Of a stretch of 64,000 nt of DNA, positions 35,815 to 51,823 are shown in pieces; the stretch's first letter is position 1; the number at the start of each line of letters is the position of its first letter. The stretch lies in contig JBFMGQ010000013.1 of assembly GCA_040752515.1 (NCBI GenBank), positions 4,909 through 68,908 of the forward strand, in the 5' to 3' direction. The notes under the pieces were generated by a model. The model did not search any database. It saw only the letters and a program-made list of their open reading frames with translations, and was not told where the DNA came from. Made by a program: the position numbers and the translations under genes. The stretch is from Bacteroidota bacterium. GTDB taxonomy: Bacteria; Bacteroidota; Bacteroidia; Bacteroidales; Tenuifilaceae.

Positions 35815-37239
35815 TCATTTTATTCGGTTTTCGCGGATAACCTCGTGAACAATATCAGGTAAGTTACTTTCGATGGTTTTTAAAACTTCCAGTACCCTTT
35901 TATGCCGGAAACGGTTTTGTCCTATTTCGTTGATGTGCTGAATAAATGCCTGTTTCAATCCTTCGCTATTTATGGAACCTTCCATATATTCCGATGCCCT
36001 ATGGTATAACTGAATTATAGGCAGGTACTGAGGCGTTTCCTTCATTTGCTTTTCTTTGGGTATTAACTTGTACCTGCGTACAATGGAAATAATTTTTGAA
36101 TACTTTTCTGCATGAAATAACGCATCGATGTATGCGGTGAAGAATAGATGCCACCGAAACTCAAAAATTTCTTTTTTGTATGCATTTAGAAATCCATCGG
36201 CATAATCTATTGCTTTTGCACATTGCCCATTTGCCACTAGAGTTTTAATGTAAAAGCTAACAAAACCAATTCTATAGTAAAGATTTCCAGATTTTTTAAG
36301 TTCTGGAAACGACGCTACCATGATCTCCAAGGCTTTTTCGTTTTTGCCTTGTCGCAGTAAAACATCGCAAAGGTTAATTAAGTAGAAAAGGTAATCGCTA
36401 TTGCGGTATCGAATTGAAAGGAAACCATACTTTTCGGCTTCGTCGAGTTCGTTAAGTTTTGAGTGCATCATCGCTCGATTGGCGTAGTAATTTGCTAGTA
36501 TTCGCTTGGAGTAGAAGACATCTTTTTTGAACTGTTGATCGAGATGCTGGTAAACCAGCCGCAACTTGTCGAATTCCCTGTTTGTGTAATAAAGAATGGT
36601 TAACCTTACTAAAGCCCGGTATCGGGTGTATCCGTCTATAGAGTCATTGTAGTAAATATCGGAGAAGAGTTTCTCCCAGGTTTCAAATTCCTCGGCAACC
36701 CATATCTTTTTAAAGATAACTTTTTCGGCTGCTTCGTTCATTTTATTGTTCAGTTGTTGGGAATTAAAGTAGTTTATTTTATAGCGTTCTAAGTAGTTCG
36801 ATACAATGGCGTAATTTCGGGGTCGATTCCGGACAATTAAGTAATCGCGGTAATGTTGCAAAACCCTAAAGAATTTCATGAAGTAGTAACTGGTGGGTAA
36901 CACCTCATCCATTTTCCTAAGTAACTCTAACTCTTGGTCTGACTGAATGGAGTCGTTCATGATGCTTTTTTCAATCTCGCTCAGCCATGCATAAAAGATA
37001 TCAACATCAATTTTTTGAAGATTCTCTTGTATCCAGGCTTTCATGTAGGAGTATGTCCGCTTGTCGATTGATTTATCGAACGGTAAGCGATTTTCTGGGT
37101 TTTTTGAATTATAGGAGATTAAATTGAGAATTTTTAAGTTCTCTTCTTTCTGAAATTGCTGTATCGAGATTAAGTAGTCCAATTCATGCGGGTAAAGTTC
37201 CGCACAAAAGGTCTCGAAAGCGGCAAGTTTACTTTTCAT
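35815..37239 (-). CDS. Hypothetical cytoplasmic alpha-helical (TPR-like) protein
   Basis: 474-aa ORF, no signal peptide, helical repeats (YYANRAMMHSKLNELDEAEKY). Confidence 0.55.
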   Translation of the reverse strand: MKSKLAAFETFCAELYPHELDYLISIQQFQKEENLKILNLISYNSKNPENRLPFDKSIDKRTYSYMKAWIQENLQKIDVDIFYAWLSEIEKSIMNDSIQSDQELELLRKMDEVLPTSYYFMKFFRVLQHYRDYLIVRNRPRNYAIVSNYLERYKINYFNSQQLNNKMNEAAEKVIFKKIWVAEEFETWEKLFSDIYYNDSIDGYTRYRALVRLTILYYTNREFDKLRLVYQHLDQQFKKDVFYSKRILANYYANRAMMHSKLNELDEAEKYGFLSIRYRNSDYLFYLINLCDVLLRQGKNEKALEIMVASFPELKKSGNLYYRIGFVSFYIKTLVANGQCAKAIDYADGFLNAYKKEIFEFRWHLFFTAYIDALFHAEKYSKIISIVRRYKLIPKEKQMKETPQYLPIIQLYHRASEYMEGSINSEGLKQAFIQHINEIGQNRFRHKRVLEVLKTIESNLPDIVHEVIRENRIK

Positions 37240-37302: not shown

Positions 37303-37698
37303 TTAAATCTGCTTTAACCATTCAGTAGCTTCGCGCTCGTCGTTAAAGAATTTTGATATAAACTTTTTGGGGTCGCGTTTGGCCATTATATTTTTAACTG
37401 CAAAGGTAATAAAGGGATCGTTTGGCAGTAGAACTGCAGAACAGCGATACCCTATTGCCTGAGCTTGCAGTAACCACTCTTCGTTTAACCATTTTTGGTC
37501 TTCCACGGCAAAAACTTTTGCTTCAGTATTATCGGTCAGTATCTTGGTAATGGAGTGTTTACGCATAAGCTCCAACGCAGTATTGCACCCTTCCCTGAAT
37601 TCGTTGCTTGGAGGAAGTCCAATCCACTTAATCTTTAGGCAAGGAACGTCCTCAATAACGGTTATTTTGCAGTGATTTCCTACCTCAATGGTTTCCAT
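37303..37698 (-). CDS. SpoIIAA-like / STAS-SEC14-type small protein
   Basis: KILTDN, DQKWLNEEW, FNDEREATEWL pattern. Confidence 0.7.
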   Translation of the reverse strand: METIEVGNHCKITVIEDVPCLKIKWIGLPPSNEFREGCNTALELMRKHSITKILTDNTEAKVFAVEDQKWLNEEWLLQAQAIGYRCSAVLLPNDPFITFAVKNIMAKRDPKKFISKFFNDEREATEWLKQI

Positions 37699-37704
37699 AT
37701 CAGA

Positions 37705-38658
37705 TTACTGTTTTAGAAATTCTATTACAGCATTGTTGAAAATCTCTGGTTTTTCGAACATCATAAAGTGCCCGCATTTGGGTACCATAACTAACTTACT
37801 GTTAGCAATCTTTGAAGCGCCGTAAGTAGCAATATCTCTGGTTTTCCCGGGGTTAAGATACCGGTTAGGAATTAAGTTGTCGTTTTCGCCAAAGAATATA
37901 AGGGTTGGCATCTTGATATCGTTCAGGTAATCAATTACGGGCTCATCAACCATGCCTTTAACCGATTGGGCTACAGCGTAGCAATAACCATCAAAATCGG
38001 CCGCCTTCCGCATGCGGAGCCTATCGGTAATCATGAATTCGGCTTCTTTGGGAACCTTGTAAAAGTTAGTAGCCAGGTTGTTTTGAATTGCTTCGGCAGT
38101 GGTAAGTTTAACACCTTTAGGCGTCATAACATCCCTAAACCATTGCTTTTGCCCAGCTGTAAACCTCTCGAATCCGGCTGGAGCAACCAAAATAAGGCCG
38201 TTTACAATTTCAGGGTAAAGTAGGGCGGTAGTGATTGATATTTGCCCACCCATTGAATGCCCTGCAAGGTAAACATTTTGTAGGTTGAGCTCCTTGATCA
38301 GTTCAGCAACAACACCTGCGTAGTACGACATTAATCCGCTATGGGGCTCTTTGCTTGATTTACCATATCCGGGGAGGTCGATAGCAATGCAACGAAAATG
38401 CTGGCTTAACTCATTGATGTTCCTGCTCCACGCTGGGGAGTAACTTCCTAAACCATGAATAAAAACAATGGTTTTATGTCCGCTTCCCATGTCGGCATAA
38501 GCTATTGTATGCCCATCGTGCGGAAGGAAAACCTTTTTAACCTGGAAAGGATATTCAAGGTCGTTCATTGTTTTTAAATCGCTTAAACCCTTATAGGGAG
38601 AGCTGCAGCTCGAAGCTACCATAACAATCAGGAGTGCTATTTTAAAATATCGAACCAT
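37705..38658 (-). CDS. Lipoprotein alpha/beta-hydrolase (esterase)
   Basis: Lipobox VASSC; HGLG oxyanion motif, GHSMGG nucleophile, GENDNL (Asp), CGHF (His). Confidence 0.9.
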   Translation of the reverse strand: MVRYFKIALLIVMVASSCSSPYKGLSDLKTMNDLEYPFQVKKVFLPHDGHTIAYADMGSGHKTIVFIHGLGSYSPAWSRNINELSQHFRCIAIDLPGYGKSSKEPHSGLMSYYAGVVAELIKELNLQNVYLAGHSMGGQISITTALLYPEIVNGLILVAPAGFERFTAGQKQWFRDVMTPKGVKLTTAEAIQNNLATNFYKVPKEAEFMITDRLRMRKAADFDGYCYAVAQSVKGMVDEPVIDYLNDIKMPTLIFFGENDNLIPNRYLNPGKTRDIATYGASKIANSKLVMVPKCGHFMMFEKPEIFNNAVIEFLKQ

Positions 38659-38668
38659 TGCTATTCAT

Positions 38669-40264
38669 TTAAAACATTAACCATTTAAAAACCACGAATG
38701 CAGTCCATGGATTTGTAGGACGCTTATCGAGTTCTCCGTTTACAGGGCTACCGTGTGAATTTTCCTTGCTGTCGTAAAAATCGCCCAACATCAGGTAGGC
38801 TGCGTGAAGTTCAAGGCTCATGAACGGGCCAAAGCTGTACATAATAGCACCATTTAGTTCGGTACCCATAAAGAATCCTCCGTCTTTGGGTTGAACATTC
38901 GATAGGGCAAACGCACTTCCTACCTTAGCGTTTAAGCGGTTAGGAATAATTCCTTTTGAGAATGTGAGTGTGCCAGCAGTTAAGCCGCATCCCATGTTTG
39001 AGATATCGCAAATGGCAGGAGTAAAGCGGTTGACTACATTGCCGTGGGGCATTAGAATGTACGACCCACTACTGATGAAGATTGCACCCGGCGAGGCCCA
39101 TTGATTCCCGGTAATAACCCCCGAGTACCTTCCGTCCTTAAGGCCGTCGGCATCACCCGATGAGTAAAGCATATCGAGTGTAACCGCGTCGGAGAGGGTT
39201 TGCCCATAGCGATACGATACCCTAAGATTGGCTGCAAAACCGTAAAAATCATTTGCTTTAGTCCATTGGCTTTGCGAAATAGTTTTATTCAAAAGAGTAT
39301 CTGCTTTACCAAGGTTGACGTTCACAAATCCGGTAATCATCCATGGGTCGAGCCAATGCTCATTGTTACGACCAAAAAATGTGCCCAACCAGTATATATC
39401 AGCTTTATAGGGAACATCGCCGTAACGGAAGAAATATGTGCCGTTATAGGAAGAGAGAAGCGAATTTAATCCCTGTCCCAGAATTGAAACGCCTCCTTTG
39501 CCTGCTGCCCTATCGCGAAGCCAGTATGCCGATAACCCCCATTTCCACGCACGGCTGATATCCTTTTCGCCGGTAAGCTCAAACAACGAAACATCGTCGT
39601 CCTGCTCGGTGGCATTTTCGTAAAGCTGATAGTATCCTGCTTTTATTCTTGAAAAGTCCCAATCCTTCCTTACGGAAATTCCAACACCATCGGTTCCCCA
39701 GTAGGCAAGCCGATATCCGGTAGTAGTCATTTTATCGAATACCGTTCTGTATGGGTTGTATGGAGTGTCGAAAAGGCGCTGTAACCCAAGGTTAATAAAC
39801 CAACCCTTCGACGGATTAAGTTCAATTTCGATGTTCTGGGTTTGAAGGTTAACCTGGTCGGCCGAAATGCCCGAACCAAGATTACCACCAACACCATAGG
39901 CAGCATCGCCCCACGTCCAGTCTATTTCAAATGAGGCGCGTAGCAATGCTTTACCGTTAAATAGTTTAGGCTGATAGATAAAAAAGGGTATCAACCTTTG
40001 CTCAAAATATTTGGAGGTTAGCGAATCGCTGGTGGTGGTTGTGTTGTTGCCGAATAGGCGGCCTACCACTTGCCCTTTTAGGAATTCGCTCTTTGCATAC
40101 ATATTCGATGCCACACCCTGGTTGATAAAGAAAGCAAAAAATTGCAGTTCCTTATCGGCCTTTTCAGGTATTTCTTTTGAGAAATACTGATTTGTGGGTA
40201 CTTGCCCTTGAATGCTCCATGCCATCAGCATGAAGAGCACAAAACCAACAACTCTTTTTTTCAT
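38669..40264 (-). CDS. Outer-membrane beta-barrel protein of unknown family
   Basis: Signal peptide, many amphipathic strands, terminal VVFKWLMF; ATG 40264. Confidence 0.7.
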   Translation of the reverse strand: MKKRVVGFVLFMLMAWSIQGQVPTNQYFSKEIPEKADKELQFFAFFINQGVASNMYAKSEFLKGQVVGRLFGNNTTTTSDSLTSKYFEQRLIPFFIYQPKLFNGKALLRASFEIDWTWGDAAYGVGGNLGSGISADQVNLQTQNIEIELNPSKGWFINLGLQRLFDTPYNPYRTVFDKMTTTGYRLAYWGTDGVGISVRKDWDFSRIKAGYYQLYENATEQDDDVSLFELTGEKDISRAWKWGLSAYWLRDRAAGKGGVSILGQGLNSLLSSYNGTYFFRYGDVPYKADIYWLGTFFGRNNEHWLDPWMITGFVNVNLGKADTLLNKTISQSQWTKANDFYGFAANLRVSYRYGQTLSDAVTLDMLYSSGDADGLKDGRYSGVITGNQWASPGAIFISSGSYILMPHGNVVNRFTPAICDISNMGCGLTAGTLTFSKGIIPNRLNAKVGSAFALSNVQPKDGGFFMGTELNGAIMYSFGPFMSLELHAAYLMLGDFYDSKENSHGSPVNGELDKRPTNPWTAFVVFKWLMF

Positions 40265-40296
40265 CGACACCTGGCAGTTCAGTGGGTTAAAGAAAT

Positions 40297-40329
40297 AAAA
40301 AAGGGACTTGCAGGTATAGCAAGCCCCTT
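40297..40329 (-). terminator. Internal terminator/attenuator-like hairpin after the lipoprotein gene
   Basis: aaggg(a)cttgc...gcaag(c)ccctt with an A-run on the plus strand. Confidence 0.55.
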
Positions 40330-40340
40330 AGGTAATAGTT

Positions 40341-40853
40341 TTAGCGAACAATTTTTATGTACTTCTGAATGTTAGTGGTTCCATATGCTCCACCGCTGGT
40401 GCTTCCAAAACCAGCTTGTGCGGTGGGAGGTGTTACCCCTGGAATTTGAGGCTCAACTTGAGCTACTTCATAGTTCATGGTGTAAGGATTCTTGGTAGCA
40501 TCAATCTCAAAAATCCCTTGGCTGGTAAGGGCAGTGGGTGAACCTTGATTTAAGGTGATGTTCCAAATGTTTCCTACGCCCGATTTGGTTTGAACATACG
40601 TTCCGGTAAGGGTGGTTTTTGCACCATCCTTGAACGATTCAACCAGGTAGGTGTTGTCCTTGTTGAACTTTGCATAAATGGAATCAATCCCTAAGTATGC
40701 GAGCAATGGCGCAACATTTGTTCCCGATGAATACCATTCCCCAACAATACCAACCTTTTGTGGATCGTTCGAGTCATCATCTTCGCTTTTTTCACATGCC
40801 ACAAAGGCTACTGAAAGCATCATGGCTAAAACAAGTAACTTTTTCATTTTCAT
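40341..40853 (-). CDS. Lipocalin-like surface lipoprotein
   Basis: Lipobox AFVAC followed by acidic EKSEDDD; IVGEW motif; beta-strand pattern. Confidence 0.6.
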   Translation of the reverse strand: MKMKKLLVLAMMLSVAFVACEKSEDDDSNDPQKVGIVGEWYSSGTNVAPLLAYLGIDSIYAKFNKDNTYLVESFKDGAKTTLTGTYVQTKSGVGNIWNITLNQGSPTALTSQGIFEIDATKNPYTMNYEVAQVEPQIPGVTPPTAQAGFGSTSGGAYGTTNIQKYIKIVR

Positions 40854-41039: not shown

Positions 41040-42056
41040 TTAGCCCCAACGGATTACATTGGCACCCCAGGCATAACCAATTCCTGCTGCTATCATTGAA
41101 ATTATTGTCCCTTTCATGATTTTCCCTGATTTTAGGGCAAGGTGAAGCGATAGGATTTGATCGATTTGCCCCATATGTCCATACTCTTCAAGGTATATGG
41201 TTTGATTCATGGTTAAGCCCAGTTCTTGCACCATGTACTCATACATCGACCTTTTAAAATGGAGGCAAGCCAGATACCCAAGTTTATCCTTATCTACCCC
41301 TGACTTTTTAAAGGCCATATTGATGCAATGCATCCAGTTGCTCATCGATACCTCATTAAGCCGCTCTTTCATATGTTTTTCGTCGAAAACCTTTAGCGAC
41401 TTGTAGGCAAAATGTGCGTTTTCGGCAGTAATGGGTTTACATGTACCACCGTATTCAACGCCCACGTCGCGAGCGAGCGATCCGTCGGTCATGATATGAG
41501 TGCCCAGCAAAACGTTACTGCCCAGGTTGCGTTTCATGATAAGTGCTCCTGCACCAGCCGATAGGTTGTACATGAACGATACTGCGGGATCCTTAAAATC
41601 AATGAAATCGCCATTGCGATAGCCCCCAACAATCATTACCGTTTTAATATCCTCGTCGGCAAGCATCATGTCCTTGGCAATTTTCATTGCTGCAACGGTT
41701 GTTCCACAACGTTGCTGCACATCGATGGCCCAGGCATTTTTTGCTCCTATTTGTTCCTGAATGTAAATGCCCGATGTGGTTAAGGGATACTCCTTCCATT
41801 CTTCGCCAATGCAAAGAATAAGATCAATCGATTCGGGATCGATCCCGGTATTTGCCAGGGCATCCTTAGCAGCTTTAACGCCCATTTCCTGCGTTCCATC
41901 ATTGGGGGCGGGAACAACTATCGATTTTATTCCTAACTTCTCAATCACTGCTTGCTCGCTCCATACCCCGCCAGTTGCTTCCGCAATCTGTCGTGCAGTC
42001 ATTCTTCCCTCAGGGATATATATTCCTGTTCCAACTATTCCAACATGAGTGTTCAT
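41040..42056 (-). CDS. FabH-fold (KAS III-like) enzyme with Cys and a GHxGxxD motif
   Basis: IDVQQRCG, LACLHFKR, YGHMGQID, AAGIGYAWGA; ATG 42056. Confidence 0.8.
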   Translation of the reverse strand: MNTHVGIVGTGIYIPEGRMTARQIAEATGGVWSEQAVIEKLGIKSIVVPAPNDGTQEMGVKAAKDALANTGIDPESIDLILCIGEEWKEYPLTTSGIYIQEQIGAKNAWAIDVQQRCGTTVAAMKIAKDMMLADEDIKTVMIVGGYRNGDFIDFKDPAVSFMYNLSAGAGALIMKRNLGSNVLLGTHIMTDGSLARDVGVEYGGTCKPITAENAHFAYKSLKVFDEKHMKERLNEVSMSNWMHCINMAFKKSGVDKDKLGYLACLHFKRSMYEYMVQELGLTMNQTIYLEEYGHMGQIDQILSLHLALKSGKIMKGTIISMIAAGIGYAWGANVIRWG

Positions 42057-42076
42057 TTTCAATAGCAATTTCAGGT

Positions 42077-43084
42077 TTAGTAAATAAACAAGTTACTTCC
42101 CACCGCCAAGCCTGCGCCCGAAGCTATAAACACAACCCTATCGCCTCTTTTCACTTTGCCTTCGGCAATAGCGTGGTGAAATGCCATGGGCACACAACCC
42201 GATCCGGTATAGCCGTAACGATCCATAACACAGGTGGTTTTGTCCATAGGTTGTCCTAGTTCTTCCATCACCTTTACAATAACTGACCGGTTAATCTGGG
42301 TGAATATGTAGTGGTCAATCTGGTTTGCAGTTAGGTTATTGTCGGTAAGTAATTTACTGGCAACCATTGGCCAAAGCCTGACATTCCTGTCTCCCGGAAG
42401 AGGCTTGAGGTTTTGCAGTCCGTACTCCTTGGCATCTATTTTATCATGGGTAATTGGATTTCGGCTCCCACCTGAGTATATACCTATGAAATCCCATTGA
42501 GTGCCATCGGCCAGATGTTGCCCTGCAATATAGCCTGATTGGCCGGAGATATCTTTTTCCAGAATGAATGCACCAGCTCCATCGGCAAAGATCGAATAAC
42601 CAAATGCATCATCGGGTCGGACAAATGCAGGCATATTGTATACACCAACTACTAGGGCATACTTAATATTGGGTGAATTGTTTAACACTTTCACAGCTGT
42701 GTCAAGTGCTATGGTAAAGCTGGCACACGAGGCATTCACATCAAAAGCGGTTGACCAGCTCTCTTTCCCTTGAACCCTTCCTTGAACAACAATTGCCGTG
42801 GCAGGTGATATGTACTCGGGTGTGTCGGTTGCCACAATTACTAGCCCAATTTCATCGACGCTAATTTTTGCCTCGGCAATTGCGTTTTGCGCAGCCTTTG
42901 TGGCAAAATCGGCAGTAGTTTCATTTAATCCTCTTAGGTGGGCTATATGCCGCTTGTATATTCCAATTTTCTGCTCGGTTTTCTCGGCATCAAATTCGAT
43001 ATTGACAAGTTCTTTCAATTCCTGATTGTCGATAGCCTTGCCGGGAGCATAAACGCCTGTTGATTTTATTCGAACTGGGATCAT
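42077..43084 (-). CDS. FabH-fold (KAS III-like) enzyme lacking the canonical His and Asn
   Basis: FDVNASCASF, FADGAGA, IFTQINR (for HQAN), YGYTGSG (for GNTSAA), GAGL. Confidence 0.82.
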   Translation of the reverse strand: MIPVRIKSTGVYAPGKAIDNQELKELVNIEFDAEKTEQKIGIYKRHIAHLRGLNETTADFATKAAQNAIAEAKISVDEIGLVIVATDTPEYISPATAIVVQGRVQGKESWSTAFDVNASCASFTIALDTAVKVLNNSPNIKYALVVGVYNMPAFVRPDDAFGYSIFADGAGAFILEKDISGQSGYIAGQHLADGTQWDFIGIYSGGSRNPITHDKIDAKEYGLQNLKPLPGDRNVRLWPMVASKLLTDNNLTANQIDHYIFTQINRSVIVKVMEELGQPMDKTTCVMDRYGYTGSGCVPMAFHHAIAEGKVKRGDRVVFIASGAGLAVGSNLFIY

Positions 43085-43097
43085 GGCTGTAATCTGA

Positions 43098-44408
43098 TTA
43101 AATGTAACCCATTTGTTTGGCTTTTTCGGTTAGCTCATCGCGAAACTTGGGATGGGCAATTGAGATAAGCGCTTTGGTTCGTTCTTTAACCGTTAATCCG
43201 GTTAACCTTGCATACCCCCATTCGGTAACAATGTAATCGGTATGGCTACGGTGAAGTGTTACTGCTGTACCCTCAGGCAACACTGGCACAATGGTTGATA
43301 CTTCACCATTTCGTGCGGTAGAACGGCAAGCAATAATTGATTTTCCCAGCCCATCTAACCCCTCAATTGCACCTTCGGCGGTATCGGTTTGACCACCTGT
43401 TCCCGAGTACTGGTTTATGCCTATCGACTCGCTGGCAACCTGCCCAGTAAAATCGACCATGATGCAGGTGTTAATGGATACCATTTTAGAGTTTTGCCTA
43501 ATAACACACGGATCGTTAACATATCGTCCCCTCAGGAACTCAACCGATGGGTTGTTGTCGAGCCAACGGTATAGCTTTTCGGAACCCATGGCAAATGTGC
43601 AAATGAATTTACCATTATGCAGGGCTTTCTTTTTATTGGTAATAACCCCTAACTCGTAAAGTTCCATCATGGAGTCAACCATCATCTCGGTATGCACACC
43701 AAGATCTTTTTTGTTGCGAAGCGATAAGGCAGCAGCGTTAGGTATCTCACCTATGCCTAGTTGAATGGTTGAGCCATCATCAACCAGTTGGGCTATGTGT
43801 TCACCAATACGCATGGCTTCCTCGTCGGGTTGGGGCGAAGGAAGAGTTGGCGGTACTTGCGAATACTCTACAAAGTAATCAACATCCTTGATGTGAACGT
43901 GGGTATCGCCAAAGGTTCTGGGCAGGTGATCGTTAACCTCAAGAACAACTACCTCGGCGGCTTCAAGTATGTCTTTTTCGTAAGTAACTCCAAGTGACAG
44001 CGAGACAAAGCCTTTCTCATCGGGTGGGGTACAGGTACCAACAAACATGTGAGGCCTGCGCACTTTGAGTCTGTCGGTTGCTGCCCGATGTAACATATTG
44101 GGTACATAGGTTACAGTACCCGTTTTTTCCTTGATTGCCTGACGTGATCCGGGTGCATGAAACCAGCTGCATAACTCAAAGTGTCCTTTCATCTCCGGTT
44201 TCATGTAAAAGTCGTAGGGTTTCATGGTAAGTACCGAGAAAACCTTTACATCTTTCACTCTATCTTTGGCTAAGTGGAACTTGCTCATGCAGCCCTGGGG
44301 TTCCGATGCGCATTGAGCGACAATAATATCGCTATCGCTTTTTATTAAATCAGCTACCTGTTCCAGGCTGATTAACTTACTTTTATACAAATCGGTAAAT
44401 TTACCCAT
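43098..44408 (-). CDS. Acetyl-CoA hydrolase/4-hydroxybutyrate CoA-transferase family
   Basis: GFVSLS, IQLGIG, LGVHTEM (catalytic Glu), SGTGGQTD, YIVTEWG. Confidence 0.9.
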   Translation of the reverse strand: MGKFTDLYKSKLISLEQVADLIKSDSDIIVAQCASEPQGCMSKFHLAKDRVKDVKVFSVLTMKPYDFYMKPEMKGHFELCSWFHAPGSRQAIKEKTGTVTYVPNMLHRAATDRLKVRRPHMFVGTCTPPDEKGFVSLSLGVTYEKDILEAAEVVVLEVNDHLPRTFGDTHVHIKDVDYFVEYSQVPPTLPSPQPDEEAMRIGEHIAQLVDDGSTIQLGIGEIPNAAALSLRNKKDLGVHTEMMVDSMMELYELGVITNKKKALHNGKFICTFAMGSEKLYRWLDNNPSVEFLRGRYVNDPCVIRQNSKMVSINTCIMVDFTGQVASESIGINQYSGTGGQTDTAEGAIEGLDGLGKSIIACRSTARNGEVSTIVPVLPEGTAVTLHRSHTDYIVTEWGYARLTGLTVKERTKALISIAHPKFRDELTEKAKQMGYI

Positions 44409-44422
44409 ACTACCTTCAAATT

Positions 44423-45976
44423 TTATTGTTTTTTCTTTATCAATCGCGAAACCAATAGAGCTCCATAACCAAATATTACGGAGGCAATTATTGCAGTTGA
44501 TGCTGCAATTGCAGGATTCCGAATAGTTCCCTCTAAGTATTTATCAAAAAATCCGAAACTTAGTGAGTATTTGGTGTGTAGGTGGGGTAAAAGGTAATAA
44601 ATGCTAAAATGCGTCACTGCAGCTACTATAGATGCTAGGAAGGGTATCCACGATTTTATATCTTTTAAAAAGATACCCATAAGAATAGGTACAAAAATTA
44701 TGGAAAAGTATGCGTAAACTCCATTTTGAGCGAGGATAGCAACGCTTAGCTTAGGATGCAGAAGCTGGTCGCGAGCAACCAAAAACGATACCAGCGCGAG
44801 AGCTACTATAATTATTCGGTTAATCCTAAGGTATTGCTTATCGCTTAGGGCTCTTTTCTCGCCCCATAAGGGCTTAACGATATCGTTATTTATACTACTG
44901 CTTAACGATTGTATTAGCCCTTCGAGGGTTGACATTCCCGCTGAAATTAGCCCTAGTATTACCAACAAGCCAACCAGTGTGGCAACTATTCCATTGGAAA
45001 AAACTTTCACAACATATGAGGGAATGATGCTATCGTTGGTAAGGTGTACACCATTAGCGGTAAGGTCGGGAAATTCCATACGAGCCCATAATCCGGCGAT
45101 AACTACGCTAAAAAACAGTATTTCAACAATTATAGATGTGGCCAAGAATTTATTTACATCACTCTCCTTTTTAAGAAGCAGCGATTTGGTTATTATATGC
45201 GGTTGGCAGACAACGGCAACGCCTATAACAATTTGAGCAAATATAATTTCATAAAAGTCTCGAAATAGTGGACTATTGGGATTTGTAGGTTTTGTGAGAG
45301 CAGGATCTATTGCTGCCAGCTTTTTGAGGAATGCACCAAAACCATCGCTTAAATGATGTAAACCGGAAAATATTAGTATGGCTGCAACCACAATCATTAT
45401 AACAGCCTGGATAGTATTTGTGTAAACCATTGAGTTTGCGCCACCAAACATCATGTATCCAAACACAAATAAAACAATAACGGCAAGCGTTATAACCTCA
45501 TTGGAGTTAAGCGCACTGGCAAAAACCTTAGCAAGCGCAACAAGTATCAGCACTATAAACGTGATAAGCAAAACCGATAGTATGGCAATAAAAAAAGCAT
45601 ACGGCTTGCTGTTATATCTTTTTCCCATCCAGCTGGCAAGCGAAACAGCACTGACCGATTGGCCAAAACGGCGGAAACTTTTAGTTAGAATAGCCAACGA
45701 CACTAAAGTGGCCAGAGGGAAGAAAACCCCAAATGATAGCACACCGCTAATCCCGTAGTTAGCTATTAAACCGGGATTAATTACAAATGTTGCAGCACTG
45801 GTCATTGCTGCAGCAAGGGAAAGCCCTACCGAGTAAGGTGAAAATGTAACGCTACCAAGAGCATAATCGCTCATAGTTTTAACTCGTAATGCTCCCTTAA
45901 TAACAAAGTATAGCACTATACCCGCATATAGCGCTATTAGAATCCAAGTTCCAAATATTTGCTCACTAGTTGCCAT
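44423..45976 (-). CDS. Sodium:solute symporter (SSS family)
   Basis: About 13 TM segments, MTSAATFVINPG, FGGANSMVYTNTIQ, SAGMSTLEG. Confidence 0.88.
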   Translation of the reverse strand: MATSEQIFGTWILIALYAGIVLYFVIKGALRVKTMSDYALGSVTFSPYSVGLSLAAAMTSAATFVINPGLIANYGISGVLSFGVFFPLATLVSLAILTKSFRRFGQSVSAVSLASWMGKRYNSKPYAFFIAILSVLLITFIVLILVALAKVFASALNSNEVITLAVIVLFVFGYMMFGGANSMVYTNTIQAVIMIVVAAILIFSGLHHLSDGFGAFLKKLAAIDPALTKPTNPNSPLFRDFYEIIFAQIVIGVAVVCQPHIITKSLLLKKESDVNKFLATSIIVEILFFSVVIAGLWARMEFPDLTANGVHLTNDSIIPSYVVKVFSNGIVATLVGLLVILGLISAGMSTLEGLIQSLSSSINNDIVKPLWGEKRALSDKQYLRINRIIIVALALVSFLVARDQLLHPKLSVAILAQNGVYAYFSIIFVPILMGIFLKDIKSWIPFLASIVAAVTHFSIYYLLPHLHTKYSLSFGFFDKYLEGTIRNPAIAASTAIIASVIFGYGALLVSRLIKKKQ

Positions 45977-46060: not shown

Positions 46061-46804
46061 TTAGATAGTTATACCACCGTCAACACTTAAGACTGTGCCA
46101 TTAATGTAAGCGGCTTCGTCGCTTGCCAGGAATAGGTAAGCCGATGCAATCTCTTCGGGGAGCCCTAGGCGACCAACCGGAACTTTCTGCTCCATGGCTT
46201 TAAGTATATCCTCGGGCATTTTTTTTACCATTTCGGTTGCTATGAAACCGGGTGCAACGGCATTAACGGTTACCCCTTTACGACCAAGCTCTTTGCCCCA
46301 AGTCTTTGTCATGCCAATTAATCCAGCTTTTGTAGCCACATAGTTGGTTTGGCCAAAATTACCATAAAGGGCAACAACCGACGAGGTGTTGATAATTCGG
46401 CCATAACCCTTGTCAACCATGAAGCCGCTAACGCATTTGGTACAGTTGAAAACCCCTGTAAGATTAACATCAATTACTTCCTGCCATTGCTGAGGAGTCA
46501 TTTTCTTTAGCGTTGAATCGCGAGTAATGCCAGCATTGTTTATTAGTATATCAATCCGCCCGTACTTGCTGATGGCATCGTTAGTTGCAGCTTCAACCTC
46601 TTCGAATTTGGCAGTGTTTACTTTTACAAATTCGGCATTGCCTCCTTTCTTTTTGATTTCGTCAACGGTGGCTTTACCTTTTTCCTCGTTCATATCCCAA
46701 ATAATCACGGTAGCGCCTTCCTGGGCAAAGCGGATCGATGCCGCTTTACCAATTCCATCGGCACCCCCGGTAATGATTGCAATTTTATTCTCAATTCGTT
46801 TCAT
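46061..46804 (-). CDS. PhaB/FabG-like 3-oxoacyl-CoA reductase (SDR)
   Basis: TGGADGIG, NNAGITRD, GNFGQTNYVATKAG, VNAVAPGFI. Confidence 0.88.
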   Translation of the reverse strand: MKRIENKIAIITGGADGIGKAASIRFAQEGATVIIWDMNEEKGKATVDEIKKKGGNAEFVKVNTAKFEEVEAATNDAISKYGRIDILINNAGITRDSTLKKMTPQQWQEVIDVNLTGVFNCTKCVSGFMVDKGYGRIINTSSVVALYGNFGQTNYVATKAGLIGMTKTWGKELGRKGVTVNAVAPGFIATEMVKKMPEDILKAMEQKVPVGRLGLPEEIASAYLFLASDEAAYINGTVLSVDGGITI

Positions 46805-46822: not shown

Positions 46823-48019
46823 TTAAATATTTTCAATAATTAATGCAGTTCCTTGGCCGCCCCCAATGCAAAGTGTAGCTAAACCGGTAGCGGCATTACG
46901 GCGTTTCATTTCGTAAATCAGCGTAGTAAGGATTCGGGCTCCCGAGGCTCCAATGGGGTGGCCTAAGGCTATGGCCCCTCCATTAACGTTAACTATTTCG
47001 GGGTTCAGATTTAGATCACGTAGTACAGCAATTGATTGTGCAGCAAAAGCTTCGTTAGCCTCAATAAGTTCAATATCGCTTATTTGCATTTTGGCTTTTT
47101 GTAAGGCAATACGAGTAGCTGGTACTGGGCCATAGCCCATAATCTTGGGATCGAGAGCTGCGTTTCCATACGAAACTATTTTAACCAATGGTTTTAAGCC
47201 TAATTCGTTAGCCTTATCTCGCGACATTACAATTAACATGGCAGCCCCGTCGTTGATACCCGATGCATTACCTGCTGTAACCGTACCATCTTTTTTAAAG
47301 GCAGGCTTAAGTTTTTGCAGTTGCTCAAGGGTAACGCCTTGCCTAATAAACTCATCGGTTTTAAACAGGATTGGATCACCTTTTTTTTGGGGTATTTCAA
47401 CCGGAACAATTTCGGGCTCAAACTTGCCTGCTTTTTGAGCTGCTTCGGCTTTTTGCTGGCTATTTAGTGCAAATTCATCCTGCTCTTCGCGGCTAATTTT
47501 CCATTGTTCAGCAATATTTTCAGCTGTAATGCCCATATGATATTGATTAAACACATCGGTTAGTCCATCGTATATCATGCTGTCAATAATTTGGCCGTGC
47601 CCCATACGGTAACCGTTCCGAGCTTTGTCGAGTAGATAGGGTGCATTGGTCATGCTTTCGGTTCCTCCAGCAAGAATTACATCGGCATCGCCAAGCATAA
47701 TGAATTGGGCAGCCATAGAAACAGCTCTCAGCCCCGATCCACATAATTTGTTGATAGTCATTGCCGGTGAGGTGTCGGGCACACCAGCTTTAATTGCAAC
47801 TTGGCGTCCAACATTTTGTCCAAGTCCTGCCGATAGTATGTTTCCTACTATCGCTTCGTTTATTTCGGTAGGATTGATTCCAGCACGGGTTATCGCCTCT
47901 CGTGCTGCTATTGCACCAAGTTCAACGGCGCTTAATCCCGATAGGCTGCCATTAAAATTCCCTATGGCTGTTCGGGCGGCTGATACTATTACTACTTCTT
48001 TCATTTTATTGGGTTTCAT
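46823..48019 (-). CDS. atoB: Acetyl-CoA C-acetyltransferase (thiolase II, AtoB/PhaA family)
   Basis: [31 protein letters not shown]; alternative start 48004. Confidence 0.93.
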
Positions 48020-50476: not shown

Positions 50477-50878
50477 TTAGTAGGTAACAAAATTAAAAGG
50501 GACTTGGGCCAATTCCGATAAATCTTCACCGGCTTCGCGGAGTTCGGAATCCTCCTTGTCGTAGTACCAGTTAATAGTTAAAGGTATTCCTGCGTTTTGG
50601 ATTTGGTTAAGGCTAATGATGATATCGTATAGGAATTTCGCTGACGACGAGTTAAAGTAAACCAGTTTGAATTGAAATTCTATAGGCTGAATATTTTCAC
50701 CTTTGCTGTTTTTTTCTAAAAGTTCCTTACTATAGCTATCAAGCCAATCTAGAATAGGGATATAAAAATCTCTTACATTTTCGGGGCGTGAGTAACCCGA
50801 AATGGTCAATATATTCACACTGGGGTTAAAGTCAATTTGTGGAGTTGCGTTGCTTGATTTTAAAACTAATGGGTTCAT
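50477..50878 (-). CDS. siaC: SiaC/DUF1987 regulatory phosphoprotein
   Basis: NATPQIDF, GYSRPENV, LVYFNSSSAK, INWYYD. Confidence 0.85.
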   Translation of the reverse strand: MNPLVLKSSNATPQIDFNPSVNILTISGYSRPENVRDFYIPILDWLDSYSKELLEKNSKGENIQPIEFQFKLVYFNSSSAKFLYDIIISLNQIQNAGIPLTINWYYDKEDSELREAGEDLSELAQVPFNFVTY

Positions 50879-50888
50879 TCTGATCAAT

Positions 50889-51299
50889 TTACGTATTAGG
50901 CGTTATTGGAATAAAGTTGAACGGGAAATTAATCATCTCCGATATCTCTTCACCTGATTCAAATATCTCATCATCGTCTTCGTCGTAGTACCAGTTAATT
51001 TCAACGGCGTTACCTTTGGAGTGGAACTTCATGAAAACCATAAGGATATCCATAAGGAACTTTGAAGAAGCTGAGTTGAAGTAGGTGAGCTTCAGGTTCA
51101 GTACAAGGTTACTCTTGTTAAAGTTTGTGTTCTTGGCAAGTACATTTTCCTCGTAATCTTCAAGCCATTTAATAAGTGGTTTATAGAAACCAACAGTGTT
51201 TTCGGGCCTTGAAAAACCTGAGATTTCGAAAACCGAATTATCGGGATCGAAAAAAACTCGGGGTGTAAATTCGCTGGGCTCTATGTATAATGGTTCCAT
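50889..51299 (-). CDS. siaC: SiaC/DUF1987 regulatory phosphoprotein
   Basis: EFTPRVFFD, GFSRPEN, LTYFNSASSK, INWYYDEDD. Confidence 0.85.
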   Translation of the reverse strand: MEPLYIEPSEFTPRVFFDPDNSVFEISGFSRPENTVGFYKPLIKWLEDYEENVLAKNTNFNKSNLVLNLKLTYFNSASSKFLMDILMVFMKFHSKGNAVEINWYYDEDDDEIFESGEEISEMINFPFNFIPITPNT

Positions 51300-51304
51300 G
51301 GTCA

Positions 51305-51823
51305 CTAACTGTTTTGGTTTTGAAGCGACACCTTAATTCTCAGAGTAAAGTATGTGTACTGTTCGTCAATATCTTCAAAAGAGAATTCTAACTTATTTTC
51401 GGTAACCTTAGCAATATTTATGATACCGAGACCAGCACCACCTTTCTGTGTCACATTTCCACTAAGTATAACCTCCTTGTAAAACTCTTTAAGACCAGCT
51501 TTATCGAGTTGATTGACTTTCTCCAAACGTGCTTTTAAAGTGCCCATTTTAACTTTCAGCAAAGAGTTAGAGCAACTCAAATCGACCTTGTCGTTTTCCA
51601 GTATTAGTGAAAATTTGGGCTGAAAATTATTGCTGCCCTTGATAACATCTTGATGCTTGTATATGTTCTCAAGGCTCTCGACCATGGCAGAATATACTTT
51701 CTTACGTATGATGATCCCAAAGTTGTACCGCTCAAGCAACGATGTCATCTTATTGAGCAAAAAACCTATCTCCTCGTAGGAGAGTGGACCGTAATGGTTG
51801 ATTAAAACTTCGCCTTTTTCCAC
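51305..51823 (-). CDS. siaB: SiaB family protein kinase
   Basis: VESLENIYKH, GGAGLGIINIA; directly upstream of two siaC genes. Confidence 0.85.
   Translation of the reverse strand: MEKGEVLINHYGPLSYEEIGFLLNKMTSLLERYNFGIIIRKKVYSAMVESLENIYKHQDVIKGSNNFQPKFSLILENDKVDLSCSNSLLKVKMGTLKARLEKVNQLDKAGLKEFYKEVILSGNVTQKGGAGLGIINIAKVTENKLEFSFEDIDEQYTYFTLRIKVSLQNQNS

What the first reader, a model, noticed from the sequence alone, without database searches (positions are those of the whole stretch)
41040..42056. FabH-fold enzyme with a Cys...GHxGxxD signature instead of Cys-His-Asn
Seen: the nucleophile Cys is kept (QQRCG). The HQAN position reads LHFK, with Leu where the His normally aligns, and GNTSAAS is replaced by GHMGQID. 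Established: decarboxylative KAS III needs His+Asn, whereas KAS III-like acyltransferases such as CerJ use a Cys-His-Asp triad to make esters. Inference: this is an acyl/ester transferase. Run in reverse, it could thiolyse an ester oligomer with CoA and conserve the bond energy.
Basis: partly seen in the sequence, partly recalled or inferred. Interest (0 to 1): 0.68.

Follow-up and report, generated by a model that had tools for sequence, protein, structure and literature searches.

The report
FabH-like acyltransferase in PHB-ester operon
This gene encodes a very strongly conserved relative of the fatty-acid starter enzyme FabH whose active site instead matches ester-forming acyltransferases, and it sits in an operon that most likely lets anaerobes feed on 3-hydroxybutyrate esters (fragments of the bioplastic PHB); its actual reaction has not been tested.

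Summary
The minus-strand ORF 41040-42056 (338 aa) is a FabH-fold protein that keeps the nucleophile Cys117. It has Leu265 where FabH has His, and His294...Asp299 (GHMGQID) where FabH has GNTSAAS. These residues are invariant in 142 orthologues. His294 and Asp299 are kept in 70 and 72 of 78 family members down to 24% identity.

The His-x4-Asp spacing equals that of the published Cys-His-Asp triad of the acyltransferase ChlB3, which the same paper says CerJ shares. Overall sequence and fold are nevertheless nearer FabH, BioZ and PqsC. The protein passes NCBIfam PRK06840, an uncharacterised family named by homology.

The genome has two canonical Cys-His-Asn FabH genes elsewhere and no PHA synthase.

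The gene always travels with a CoA-transferase and alpha/beta hydrolases. In Tissierellia one of these hydrolases is a PHB-depolymerase equivalog. It also travels with importers, a PhaB-like reductase, a thiolase or a PhaJ-like hydratase.

Best reading: a non-decarboxylating acyl-Cys transferase in 3-hydroxybutyrate-ester catabolism. CoA-dependent ester cleavage is plausible but unproven.

The scan met the same enzyme pair before on other genomes, with the same reading.

The parts
41040..42056 (-). KAS-B, the finding: a 338-aa FabH-fold protein of NCBIfam PRK06840 with Cys117, Leu265-His266-Phe-Lys268 and Gly293-His294...Asp299
   Evidence: AF2 model pLDDT 96.9
42077..43084 (-). KAS-A, a second FabH-fold paralogue (335 aa, 25% identical to KAS-B). 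It keeps the Cys but reads TQIN and GYTG at the His and Asn positions. Its stop codon ends 20 nt upstream of the KAS-B start.
43098..44408 (-). CoA-transferase of the acetyl-CoA hydrolase/transferase (butyryl-CoA:acetate-like) family. It is the constant neighbour of KAS-B.
44423..45976 (-). Sodium:solute symporter (SSF), the likely inner-membrane importer
46061..46804 (-). FabG/PhaB-like short-chain dehydrogenase. It passes a FabG model; the acetoacetyl-CoA reductase model scores 275.7 bits, under its cut-off of 302.1.
46823..48019 (-). Thiolase II (acetyl-CoA C-acyltransferase), first gene of the co-oriented run
40341..40853 (-). 170-aa lipoprotein of no known family, with a signal peptide, a lipobox Cys and an acidic stretch after it
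   Evidence: conserved downstream of KAS-B in Bacteroidales
38669..40270 (-). 533-aa secreted protein of no known family with a signal peptide.
37705..38658 (-). Alpha/beta hydrolase with a lipoprotein signal. It is the genome's best, but sub-threshold, match to the intracellular scl-PHA depolymerase model.
37303..37698 (-). 131-aa protein of no known family, conserved in part of the Bacteroidales loci
35815..37239 (-). 474-aa protein with a weak TPR match, conserved at the end of most Bacteroidales loci

Best explanation
KAS-B is a cytoplasmic thiolase-fold enzyme that has given up FabH's decarboxylative condensation. It most likely works as a ping-pong acyltransferase. Cys117, activated by the His294-Asp299 pair as in CerJ and ChlB3, takes a short acyl group as a thioester and passes it to an acceptor, with CoA as one of the two partners. 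It is a core gene of a conserved operon that imports an ester-containing 3-hydroxy acid, most likely (R)-3-hydroxybutyrate oligomers released from PHB, and converts it through 3-hydroxybutyryl-CoA and acetoacetyl-CoA to acetyl-CoA. The most attractive specific role is CoA-dependent cleavage of the oxygen ester of an imported oligomer, free or after CoA activation by the neighbouring CoA-transferase. That would yield 3-hydroxybutyryl-CoA without spending an acetyl-CoA. Shown here: the fold, the residues, their conservation and the gene neighbourhood. Inferred: acyl-transfer chemistry, from the motif identity with characterised enzymes; the 3HB-ester substrate, from context; and the direction and acceptor, from energetic reasoning. 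My odds are about 0.6 for non-decarboxylating acyl transfer in 3HB-ester catabolism and about 0.3 for ester thiolysis specifically.
For: The fold and family are firm. The AF2 model has pLDDT 96.9, its best matches are FabH, BioZ and PqsC at TM 0.88 and Z about 40, and NF005308 scores 460.8 bits against a cut-off of 315. The FabH His is Leu and the FabH Asn is His, followed by Asp at +5. All are invariant in 142 orthologues. His294 is kept in 70 and Asp299 in 72 of 78 distant relatives. The same Cys/His/Asp arrangement is catalytic in ChlB3 and CerJ (PMC9573744). The gene is not the housekeeping FabH, because two canonical Cys-His-Asn genes lie elsewhere in a 99.66% complete genome. For context, 74 of 80 related loci have the CoA-transferase beside KAS-B. 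All Bacteroidales loci that reach far enough repeat the run thiolase-SDR-SSF-CoAT-KASA-KASB-lipoprotein-secreted protein-esterase. The 27 Firmicutes loci share a sigma-54 activator, a Liv-type ABC importer, cytoplasmic alpha/beta hydrolases, KAS-B and the CoA-transferase. In 11 of them the hydrolase directly upstream falls in one cluster, whose tested representative is an equivalog hit to the intracellular scl-PHA depolymerase (408.9 bits, cut-off 300). Six carry a PhaJ-like MaoC hydratase and 11 an SDR. A 42%-identical relative keeps the same gene set under a TetR regulator, and a 36% relative sits beside an acyl-CoA ligase and an ABC importer. The window genome has no PHA synthase, and five Tissierellia genomes with the PhaZ-type cluster gave no class III/IV synthase match, so the ester would come from outside. 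KAS-B is 70-73% identical between phyla, whereas the CoA-transferase is 47-50%, which points to very strong constraint. A precedent for thiolytic PHB cleavage exists with another fold: PhaZ1 of Ralstonia (PMC3430594).
Against: No member of this family has been assayed in anything I could find. Overall the protein resembles FabH more than CerJ, ChlB3 or DpsC: a profile of the family scores 250-275 bits on FabH structures and 134-142 on those three. The shared His-Asp pair may therefore be convergent, and its geometry is unverified because model coordinates could not be inspected. Every operon also carries one or two hydrolases that could cleave the esters without KAS-B. An oxygen ester is lower in energy than a thioester, so thiolysis would need pulling by the downstream reactions (general knowledge). 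The invariant His266 and Lys268 have no assigned role. The substrate assignment rests on neighbourhood only.
Confidence: 0.45

Rival explanations
1. KAS-B performs Claisen-type chemistry. It would be either a thiolase-like retro-Claisen cleavage of acetoacetyl-CoA or another beta-keto (thio)ester made by the neighbouring SDR, or a condensation. A Cys/His/His(/Lys) active site would replace Cys-His-Asn.
For: It belongs to the thiolase superfamily. An SDR lies beside or near it in many loci. Most Firmicutes operons have no thiolase of their own; only 3 of 27 do. His266 and Lys268 are invariant next to the lost His position. The ChlB3 paper describes DpsC with two His residues that stabilise enolisation. 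From general knowledge, KAS I/II decarboxylate with Cys-His-His.
Against: The residue aligned with FabH His is Leu in all 142 orthologues. In the family-bridged alignment His266 takes the place of FabH's Gln, not its His. In the wider family position 266 is often Gln or Asn while His294 and Asp299 stay. Bacteroidales and the TetR-type operons carry a true thiolase as well. No malonyl-CoA source or ACP is nearby.
Confidence: 0.2
2. It is an acyltransferase, but the operon handles a different imported ester or acid, or KAS-B builds rather than cleaves an ester, for example by O-acylating a hydroxy acid from an acyl-CoA.
For: CerJ makes esters in the forward direction. Liv-type binding proteins and PrdR/AtoC-like sigma-54 activators serve many substrates. 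Most of the hydrolases in these operons match the PHA depolymerase model only below its cut-off.
Against: PHB-type partners recur across phyla and regulators: a depolymerase equivalog, a PhaB-like SDR, a PhaJ-like hydratase and a thiolase. Importers together with hydrolases point to catabolism.
Confidence: 0.2
3. KAS-B is one half of an obligate PqsBC-like heterodimer with KAS-A and has no activity alone.
For: The two genes are 20 nt apart and always paired in the 53 Bacteroidales loci, and both have non-canonical sites.
Against: KAS-B occurs without KAS-A in 23 of 27 Firmicutes loci while staying 70-73% identical. It keeps a full Cys/His/Asp set of its own.
Confidence: 0.1
4. It is an ordinary FabH that starts fatty-acid synthesis.
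For: Public annotations call it 3-oxoacyl-ACP synthase, and its best structural matches are FabH.
Against: Both FabH catalytic residues besides Cys are replaced. FabH models score 105.8 and 120.4 bits against cut-offs of 292.1 and 249. Two canonical FabH genes exist elsewhere. There are no fab or acp neighbours.
Confidence: 0.02

Closest known systems
KSIII-like acyltransferases CerJ (cervimycin, PDB 3S3L) and ChlB3 (chlorothricin, PDB 7EQI); DpsC as a related priming enzyme
   Same: They share the FabH fold, a Cys nucleophile, a His at the position of FabH's Asn and an Asp five residues later that supports it (ChlB3 Cys113/His296/Asp301; target Cys117/His294/Asp299). By my reading of the ChlB3 paper, the canonical His is also absent from CerJ and ChlB3. 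These enzymes transfer acyl groups from a thioester to O or S acceptors through an acyl-Cys intermediate.
   Different: Overall similarity is low: phmmer gives E 2.3e-5 for CerJ against 4.5e-26 for FabH, and the family profile scores 134-142 bits against 250-275. Those enzymes act in Streptomyces secondary-metabolite clusters with ACPs or sugars. This one sits in a catabolic operon with importers, a CoA-transferase and hydrolases, and has its own invariant His266-x-Lys268 and EEWKEY loop.
FabH / KAS III (e.g. E. coli 1HN9, A. aeolicus 2EBD) and BioZ
   Same: These are the best matches in sequence and fold (TM up to 0.88, Z about 40, rmsd about 2 A over more than 308 residues). They share the Cys at the helix N-terminus. 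An invariant Trp32 lies near the position of the CoA-stacking Trp of FabH (my recollection of FabH).
   Different: His244 is replaced by Leu and Asn274 by His, with an added Asp. The protein scores below the FabH model cut-offs and has no fatty-acid synthesis context.
PqsBC (Pseudomonas quinolone signal condensing enzyme)
   Same: It is also a pair of adjacent, degenerate FabH-fold genes, and PqsC ranks among the top structural matches.
   Different: PqsB and PqsC are obligate partners, whereas KAS-B is found alone in most Firmicutes loci. The chemistry and context are also different.
PhaZ1 (PhaZa1) of Ralstonia eutropha, thiolytic PHB cleavage
   Same: It is the functional analogue of the proposed reaction: PHB ester plus CoA gives 3HB-CoA (PMC3430594).
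   Different: It is an unrelated granule-bound depolymerase that acts on the cell's own polymer.

Membership tests
FabH / KAS III decarboxylating condensing enzymes (TIGR00747, NF006829) | Two-domain thiolase fold (ACP_syn_III and ACP_syn_III_C) | tested here: met
   Pfam E 7.9e-13 and 5.7e-18; model TM 0.88 and Z about 40 to FabH structures
FabH / KAS III decarboxylating condensing enzymes (TIGR00747, NF006829) | Nucleophile Cys | tested here: met
   Cys117 is invariant in 142 orthologues
FabH / KAS III decarboxylating condensing enzymes (TIGR00747, NF006829) | Catalytic His (E. coli His244) in the HQAN motif | tested here: not met
   Leu265 aligns with it; the neighbouring His266 aligns with the Gln
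FabH / KAS III decarboxylating condensing enzymes (TIGR00747, NF006829) | Catalytic Asn (E. coli Asn274) in the GNTS motif | tested here: not met
   His294 aligns with it
FabH / KAS III decarboxylating condensing enzymes (TIGR00747, NF006829) | Score over the curated model cut-off | tested here: not met
   TIGR00747 105.8 bits against 292.1; NF006829 120.4 against 249
NCBIfam NF005308 (PRK06840, named '3-oxoacyl-ACP synthase' by homology) | Score over the curated cut-off along the full length | tested here: met
   460.8 bits against 315, residues 2-338 on profile positions 2-336 of 339
KSIII-like acyltransferases (CerJ / ChlB3 type) | Cys nucleophile plus His at the FabH-Asn position plus Asp at +5 | tested here: met
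   Cys117, His294 and Asp299. ChlB3 numbering comes from PMC9573744 and the HMMER ranges agree within 2-3 residues. No residue-by-residue alignment to CerJ or ChlB3 was printed.
KSIII-like acyltransferases (CerJ / ChlB3 type) | His side chain in contact with the Cys, held by the Asp | not testable with these tools
   The model is confident, but coordinates cannot be read, so no distances were measured
KSIII-like acyltransferases (CerJ / ChlB3 type) | Closest overall relatives are members of that clade | tested here: not met
   The family profile scores 142 (CerJ), 135 (ChlB3) and 134-136 (DpsC) bits against 250-275 for FabHs
KSIII-like acyltransferases (CerJ / ChlB3 type) | Acyl transfer without decarboxylative condensation | not testable with these tools
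   Needs an enzyme assay
PqsBC-like obligate heterodimers | The partner gene always co-occurs | tested here: not met
   KAS-A is present in only 4 of 27 Firmicutes loci that carry KAS-B
PHB / 3-hydroxybutyrate-ester utilisation operon (context claim) | Recurrent linkage to PHB-type genes across lineages | tested here: met
   A PHA depolymerase equivalog lies directly upstream in a cluster of 11 loci; one representative was scored, at 408.9 bits against 300. An SDR, a MaoC hydratase, a thiolase and a CoA-transferase also recur.
PHB / 3-hydroxybutyrate-ester utilisation operon (context claim) | Growth on, or induction by, 3HB esters | not testable with these tools
   No expression or growth data were examined; only the habitat is known (anaerobic digester, sludge and groundwater metagenomes)

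The most novel reading that the evidence does not exclude
KAS-B is a new kind of depolymerising enzyme, a thiolase-fold 'ester thiolase'. It would cleave the oxygen-ester bond of imported (R)-3-hydroxybutyrate oligomers with CoA, possibly after the neighbouring CoA-transferase has activated the oligomer's free carboxylate, and release 3-hydroxybutyryl-CoA directly. By my stoichiometric reasoning, fermenting anaerobes would then keep one extra acetyl-CoA, about one ATP, per ester bond compared with hydrolysis. That would explain why the enzyme is 70-73% identical across phyla.
Probability: 0.27. Interest if true: 0.85.

Novelty: new variant of a known kind. Interest (0 to 1): 0.62.

Why it matters
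Thousands of database entries call this protein '3-oxoacyl-ACP synthase', which is almost certainly wrong. It marks a conserved operon found in hundreds of mostly anaerobic species from digesters, sludge and sediments. These are places where PHB from dead biomass and bioplastics is degraded, and the intracellular steps of anaerobic PHB use are poorly known. If the enzyme cleaves esters with CoA, it would add an energy-conserving step to polyester fermentation. It would also provide a catalyst for making or recycling 3-hydroxyacyl-CoA from polyester fragments. It would be the first case of the CerJ-type Cys-His-Asp site working in primary catabolism.

Tried and rejected
- A single-sequence AF2 model was useless (pLDDT 41.9). 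It was replaced by a model built from a 78-sequence alignment.
- I tried three ways to get a printed residue-level alignment to CerJ or ChlB3: a C-terminal fragment, a 24-residue motif fragment (no hits) and a profile of the xNQxK subfamily. FabH structures always ranked first, so only ranges were obtained.
- CerJ and ChlB3 do not appear among the 50 entries listed by VIA-align. This shows only that FabH-type structures rank higher.
- Six literature searches for an assayed member, or for an anaerobic PHB-oligomer pathway containing a KAS III-like enzyme, found nothing relevant.
- Context look-ups for more distant relatives returned contigs too short to read.
- No terminator-like site was found in the 186-nt gap after the gene, and the sigma-70 scan does not apply to Bacteroidota promoters.
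- The sequencing-run search gave the habitat only.
- I did not run complex prediction. Any two FabH-fold chains would dock by likeness to solved dimers, and this report does not claim a KAS-A/KAS-B or KAS-B/CoA-transferase complex.
- I considered and rejected a housekeeping FabH, and a recent transfer of the whole operon as the cause of the 70% cross-phylum identity. Against transfer, the neighbouring CoA-transferase is only 47-50% identical and the hydrolase 25-28%.

Full report
**1. What is there**

The reverse strand of 41040-42056 is an uninterrupted 338-codon frame. The mechanical ORF list extends it to a TTG at 42068. Homologues, however, are 338 aa long and cover the query end to end, so the ATG at 42056 is the likely start.

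Pfam finds both FabH domains. NCBIfam places the protein in NF005308 (PRK06840, an equivalog model named only '3-oxoacyl-ACP synthase') with 460.8 bits against a cut-off of 315. The true FabH models reach only 105.8 and 120.4 bits, against cut-offs of 292.1 and 249.

An AlphaFold2 model built from 78 relatives is very confident (pLDDT 96.9). It superposes best on FabH, BioZ and PqsC, with TM up to 0.88, Z about 40 and rmsd about 2 A.

**2. The motif**

Several alignments agree on the register:
- HMMER alignments to FabH structures put Leu265 on the catalytic His, His266 on the following Gln, and His294 on the catalytic Asn.
- The genome's own canonical FabH gives the same picture: VPHQAN / YGNTTS against CLHFK / YGHMGQ.
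- Intermediate family members that read xNQxK or xTQxN bridge FabH's HQAN and this protein's LHFK.

The pattern is under selection. In 142 orthologues, Cys117, Leu265, His266, Lys268, His294, Asp299, Trp32 and Trp330 never vary. In 78 relatives down to 24% identity, Cys is kept in 70, His294 in 70 and Asp299 in 72. Position 266 drifts between His (41), Gln (26) and Asn (7).

So G-H-x-G-x-x-D defines a large, mostly unstudied branch of the FabH fold. LHFK defines this orthologue group within it.

**3. Comparison with characterised enzymes**

The ChlB3 structure paper gives the ChlB3 triad as Cys113-His296-Asp301. It reports that CerJ's C116, H295 and D301 mutants are dead or nearly so. It states that the His-Asp pair raises the reactivity of the Cys, and that CerJ transfers malonyl to a sugar hydroxyl (PMC9573744).

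The target's Cys117, His294 and Asp299 have the same order and the same His-to-Asp spacing. The HMMER ranges put the residues within two or three positions of ChlB3's.

This supports the claim that the enzyme works like a CerJ-type acyltransferase. It does not make it a member of that clade. The family profile scores 250-275 bits on FabH structures but only 134-142 on CerJ, ChlB3 and DpsC. Direct phmmer gives E 2.3e-5 for CerJ against 4.5e-26 for FabH.

I could not read model coordinates, so the Cys-His contact is inferred, not measured.

The invariant His266 and Lys268 have no counterpart that I can name. The ChlB3 paper describes DpsC with two His residues, and from general knowledge KAS I/II decarboxylate with Cys-His-His. 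Claisen-type chemistry therefore cannot be excluded from sequence alone.

**4. It is not the housekeeping enzyme**

The genome is 99.66% complete and has four FabH-fold genes. Two have textbook Cys-His-Asn sites. The other two are this gene and its upstream neighbour.

No ACP or fab genes are nearby. No PHA synthase of class I/II or class III/IV was found.

**5. Neighbourhood in the window**

Twelve co-oriented minus-strand genes run in this order:
- thiolase II
- FabG/PhaB-like SDR
- sodium:solute symporter
- CoA-transferase of the butyryl-CoA:acetate type
- KAS-A
- KAS-B (the finding)
- a 170-aa lipoprotein
- a 533-aa secreted protein
- a lipoprotein alpha/beta hydrolase
- a 131-aa protein
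- a TPR-like protein
- an AraC regulator

The gaps from the thiolase to KAS-B are 13-84 nt. A 186-nt gap follows KAS-B.

The hydrolase and the 170-aa protein have lipoprotein signals, and the 533-aa protein has a signal peptide. This fits an envelope module that handles an external ester.

**6. Neighbourhood elsewhere**

A scan of species-representative genomes returned 334 relatives, of which 80 loci were kept.
- In the 53 Bacteroidales loci the whole run is conserved wherever the contig reaches far enough.
- In 27 Firmicutes loci (Neobacillus and other Bacillaceae, Tissierellia, Sedimentibacter, Serpentinicella) KAS-B is still 70-73% identical. The CoA-transferase next to it is 47-50% identical and the hydrolase 25-28%. 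That contrast argues for strong purifying selection on KAS-B rather than recent transfer of the operon.
- Overall, 74 of 80 loci have the CoA-transferase adjacent. Four of the six exceptions end at a contig edge.

The Firmicutes operons share a sigma-54 activator, a Liv-type ABC importer with a lipoprotein binding protein, one or two alpha/beta hydrolases without signal peptides, KAS-B and the CoA-transferase.

In 11 loci the hydrolase directly upstream belongs to one cluster. Its tested representative is an equivalog hit to the intracellular short-chain-length PHA depolymerase (408.9 bits, cut-off 300). Six loci add a PhaJ-like MaoC hydratase and 11 add an SDR. Five such Tissierellia genomes gave no class III/IV PHA synthase match, although their completeness is unknown.

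More distant relatives keep the theme:
- A 42%-identical relative sits with a second KAS, a CoA-transferase, an SDR, a Liv ABC importer, two hydrolases and a thiolase under a TetR regulator.
- A 36% relative overlaps an acyl-CoA ligase gene next to an ABC importer.

The recurring logic is to import an acid that carries an ester, activate it with CoA, and process it to acetyl-CoA, with this enzyme at the centre.

KAS-A is present in only 4 of the 27 Firmicutes loci. An obligate heterodimer is therefore unlikely.

**7. Mechanism**

The best-supported reading is a ping-pong acyl transfer through acyl-Cys117, with His294-Asp299 as the activating dyad and CoA as one partner. The invariant Trp32 lies near FabH's CoA-stacking Trp; this part is my recollection, not a test.

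Within a 3-hydroxybutyrate-ester pathway, the role that would justify keeping such an enzyme beside hydrolases is CoA-dependent cleavage of the oligomer's oxygen ester. The product is 3HB-CoA, which the SDR and thiolase, or the MaoC hydratase, then take on.

By simple stoichiometry (my reasoning, not a measurement), each ester bond cleaved this way saves one CoA-transfer from acetyl-CoA, about one ATP for a fermenter.

Thiolytic PHB cleavage has a precedent in an unrelated enzyme.

Three points count against this reading. The hydrolases could do the job alone. An oxygen ester lies energetically below a thioester. Nothing has been assayed.

I put about 0.6 on non-decarboxylating acyl transfer in 3HB-ester catabolism and about 0.3 on ester thiolysis as such. 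Thiolase-like or condensing chemistry gets about 0.2, another substrate or direction about 0.2, and a heterodimer-only function about 0.1 (not exclusive). A true FabH gets about 0.02.

**8. Habitat and earlier notes**

The exact DNA occurs in anaerobic-digester, sludge, wastewater and groundwater metagenomes. This is compatible with PHB-rich biomass, but it is not evidence for it.

The scan's index shows that the same enzyme, or the same enzyme pair, was flagged on several other genomes. Three earlier follow-ups reached a similar reading: a probable PHB-type or short-chain ester-acid operon, with CerJ, ChlB3 and DpsC named as closest in two of them, and the reaction unknown. My analysis was done on this window and on loci fetched here.

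**9. Verdict**

The gene is a new variant of a known kind, a CerJ-type catalytic site on a FabH-like scaffold recruited to primary catabolism. It is very widely conserved and misnamed in public annotation.

Noticed in passing
window 42077-43084 (-): The upstream paralogue KAS-A keeps the Cys (NASCAS) but reads TQIN and GYTG at the FabH His and Asn positions. Relatives with the same pattern form their own group in the wider family (P0245, P0262, P0265), and a 42-48% identical copy is present in 4 of 27 Firmicutes loci.
   Followed up: partly
L045, L052, L058, L061-L063, L065, L075 and others (about 270-aa ORF between the sigma-54 activator and the PhaZ-type hydrolase; e.g. L041:5104-5919): A short protein with only a methyl-accepting-chemotaxis signalling domain is conserved inside 13 Firmicutes operons. 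It may be a sensor partner of the sigma-54 activator.
   Followed up: no
window 38669-40853 (-): The 170-aa lipoprotein (acidic stretch after the lipobox Cys) and the 533-aa secreted protein match no Pfam or NCBIfam family. They are nevertheless conserved after KAS-B in all Bacteroidales loci that reach that far, at 42-87% identity.
   Followed up: partly
L070 (Serpentinicella sp. ANB-PHB4, NZ_JAVKGO010000016.1): This strain's name suggests a link to PHB. It carries MaoC hydratase, SDR, hydrolase, KAS-B, CoA-transferase and KAS-A in a row. No paper on it was found in the library.
   Followed up: partly
P0001 residues 84-94, 144-151 and about 223-227: Three features are orthologue-specific and nearly invariant, and absent from FabH: an EEWKEYPLTTSG loop, a GGYRNGDF segment and a five-residue insertion (FDEKH). 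The many charged residues suggest a small polar or anionic substrate.
   Followed up: no
L082:520-1596 (own genome, contig 1): The genome has a second canonical Cys-His-Asn KAS III (358 aa) with long insertions, besides the ordinary FabH on contig 34.
   Followed up: no
window 50477-51823 (-): A SiaB-family kinase gene is followed by two SiaC-like phosphoprotein genes in tandem.
   Followed up: no
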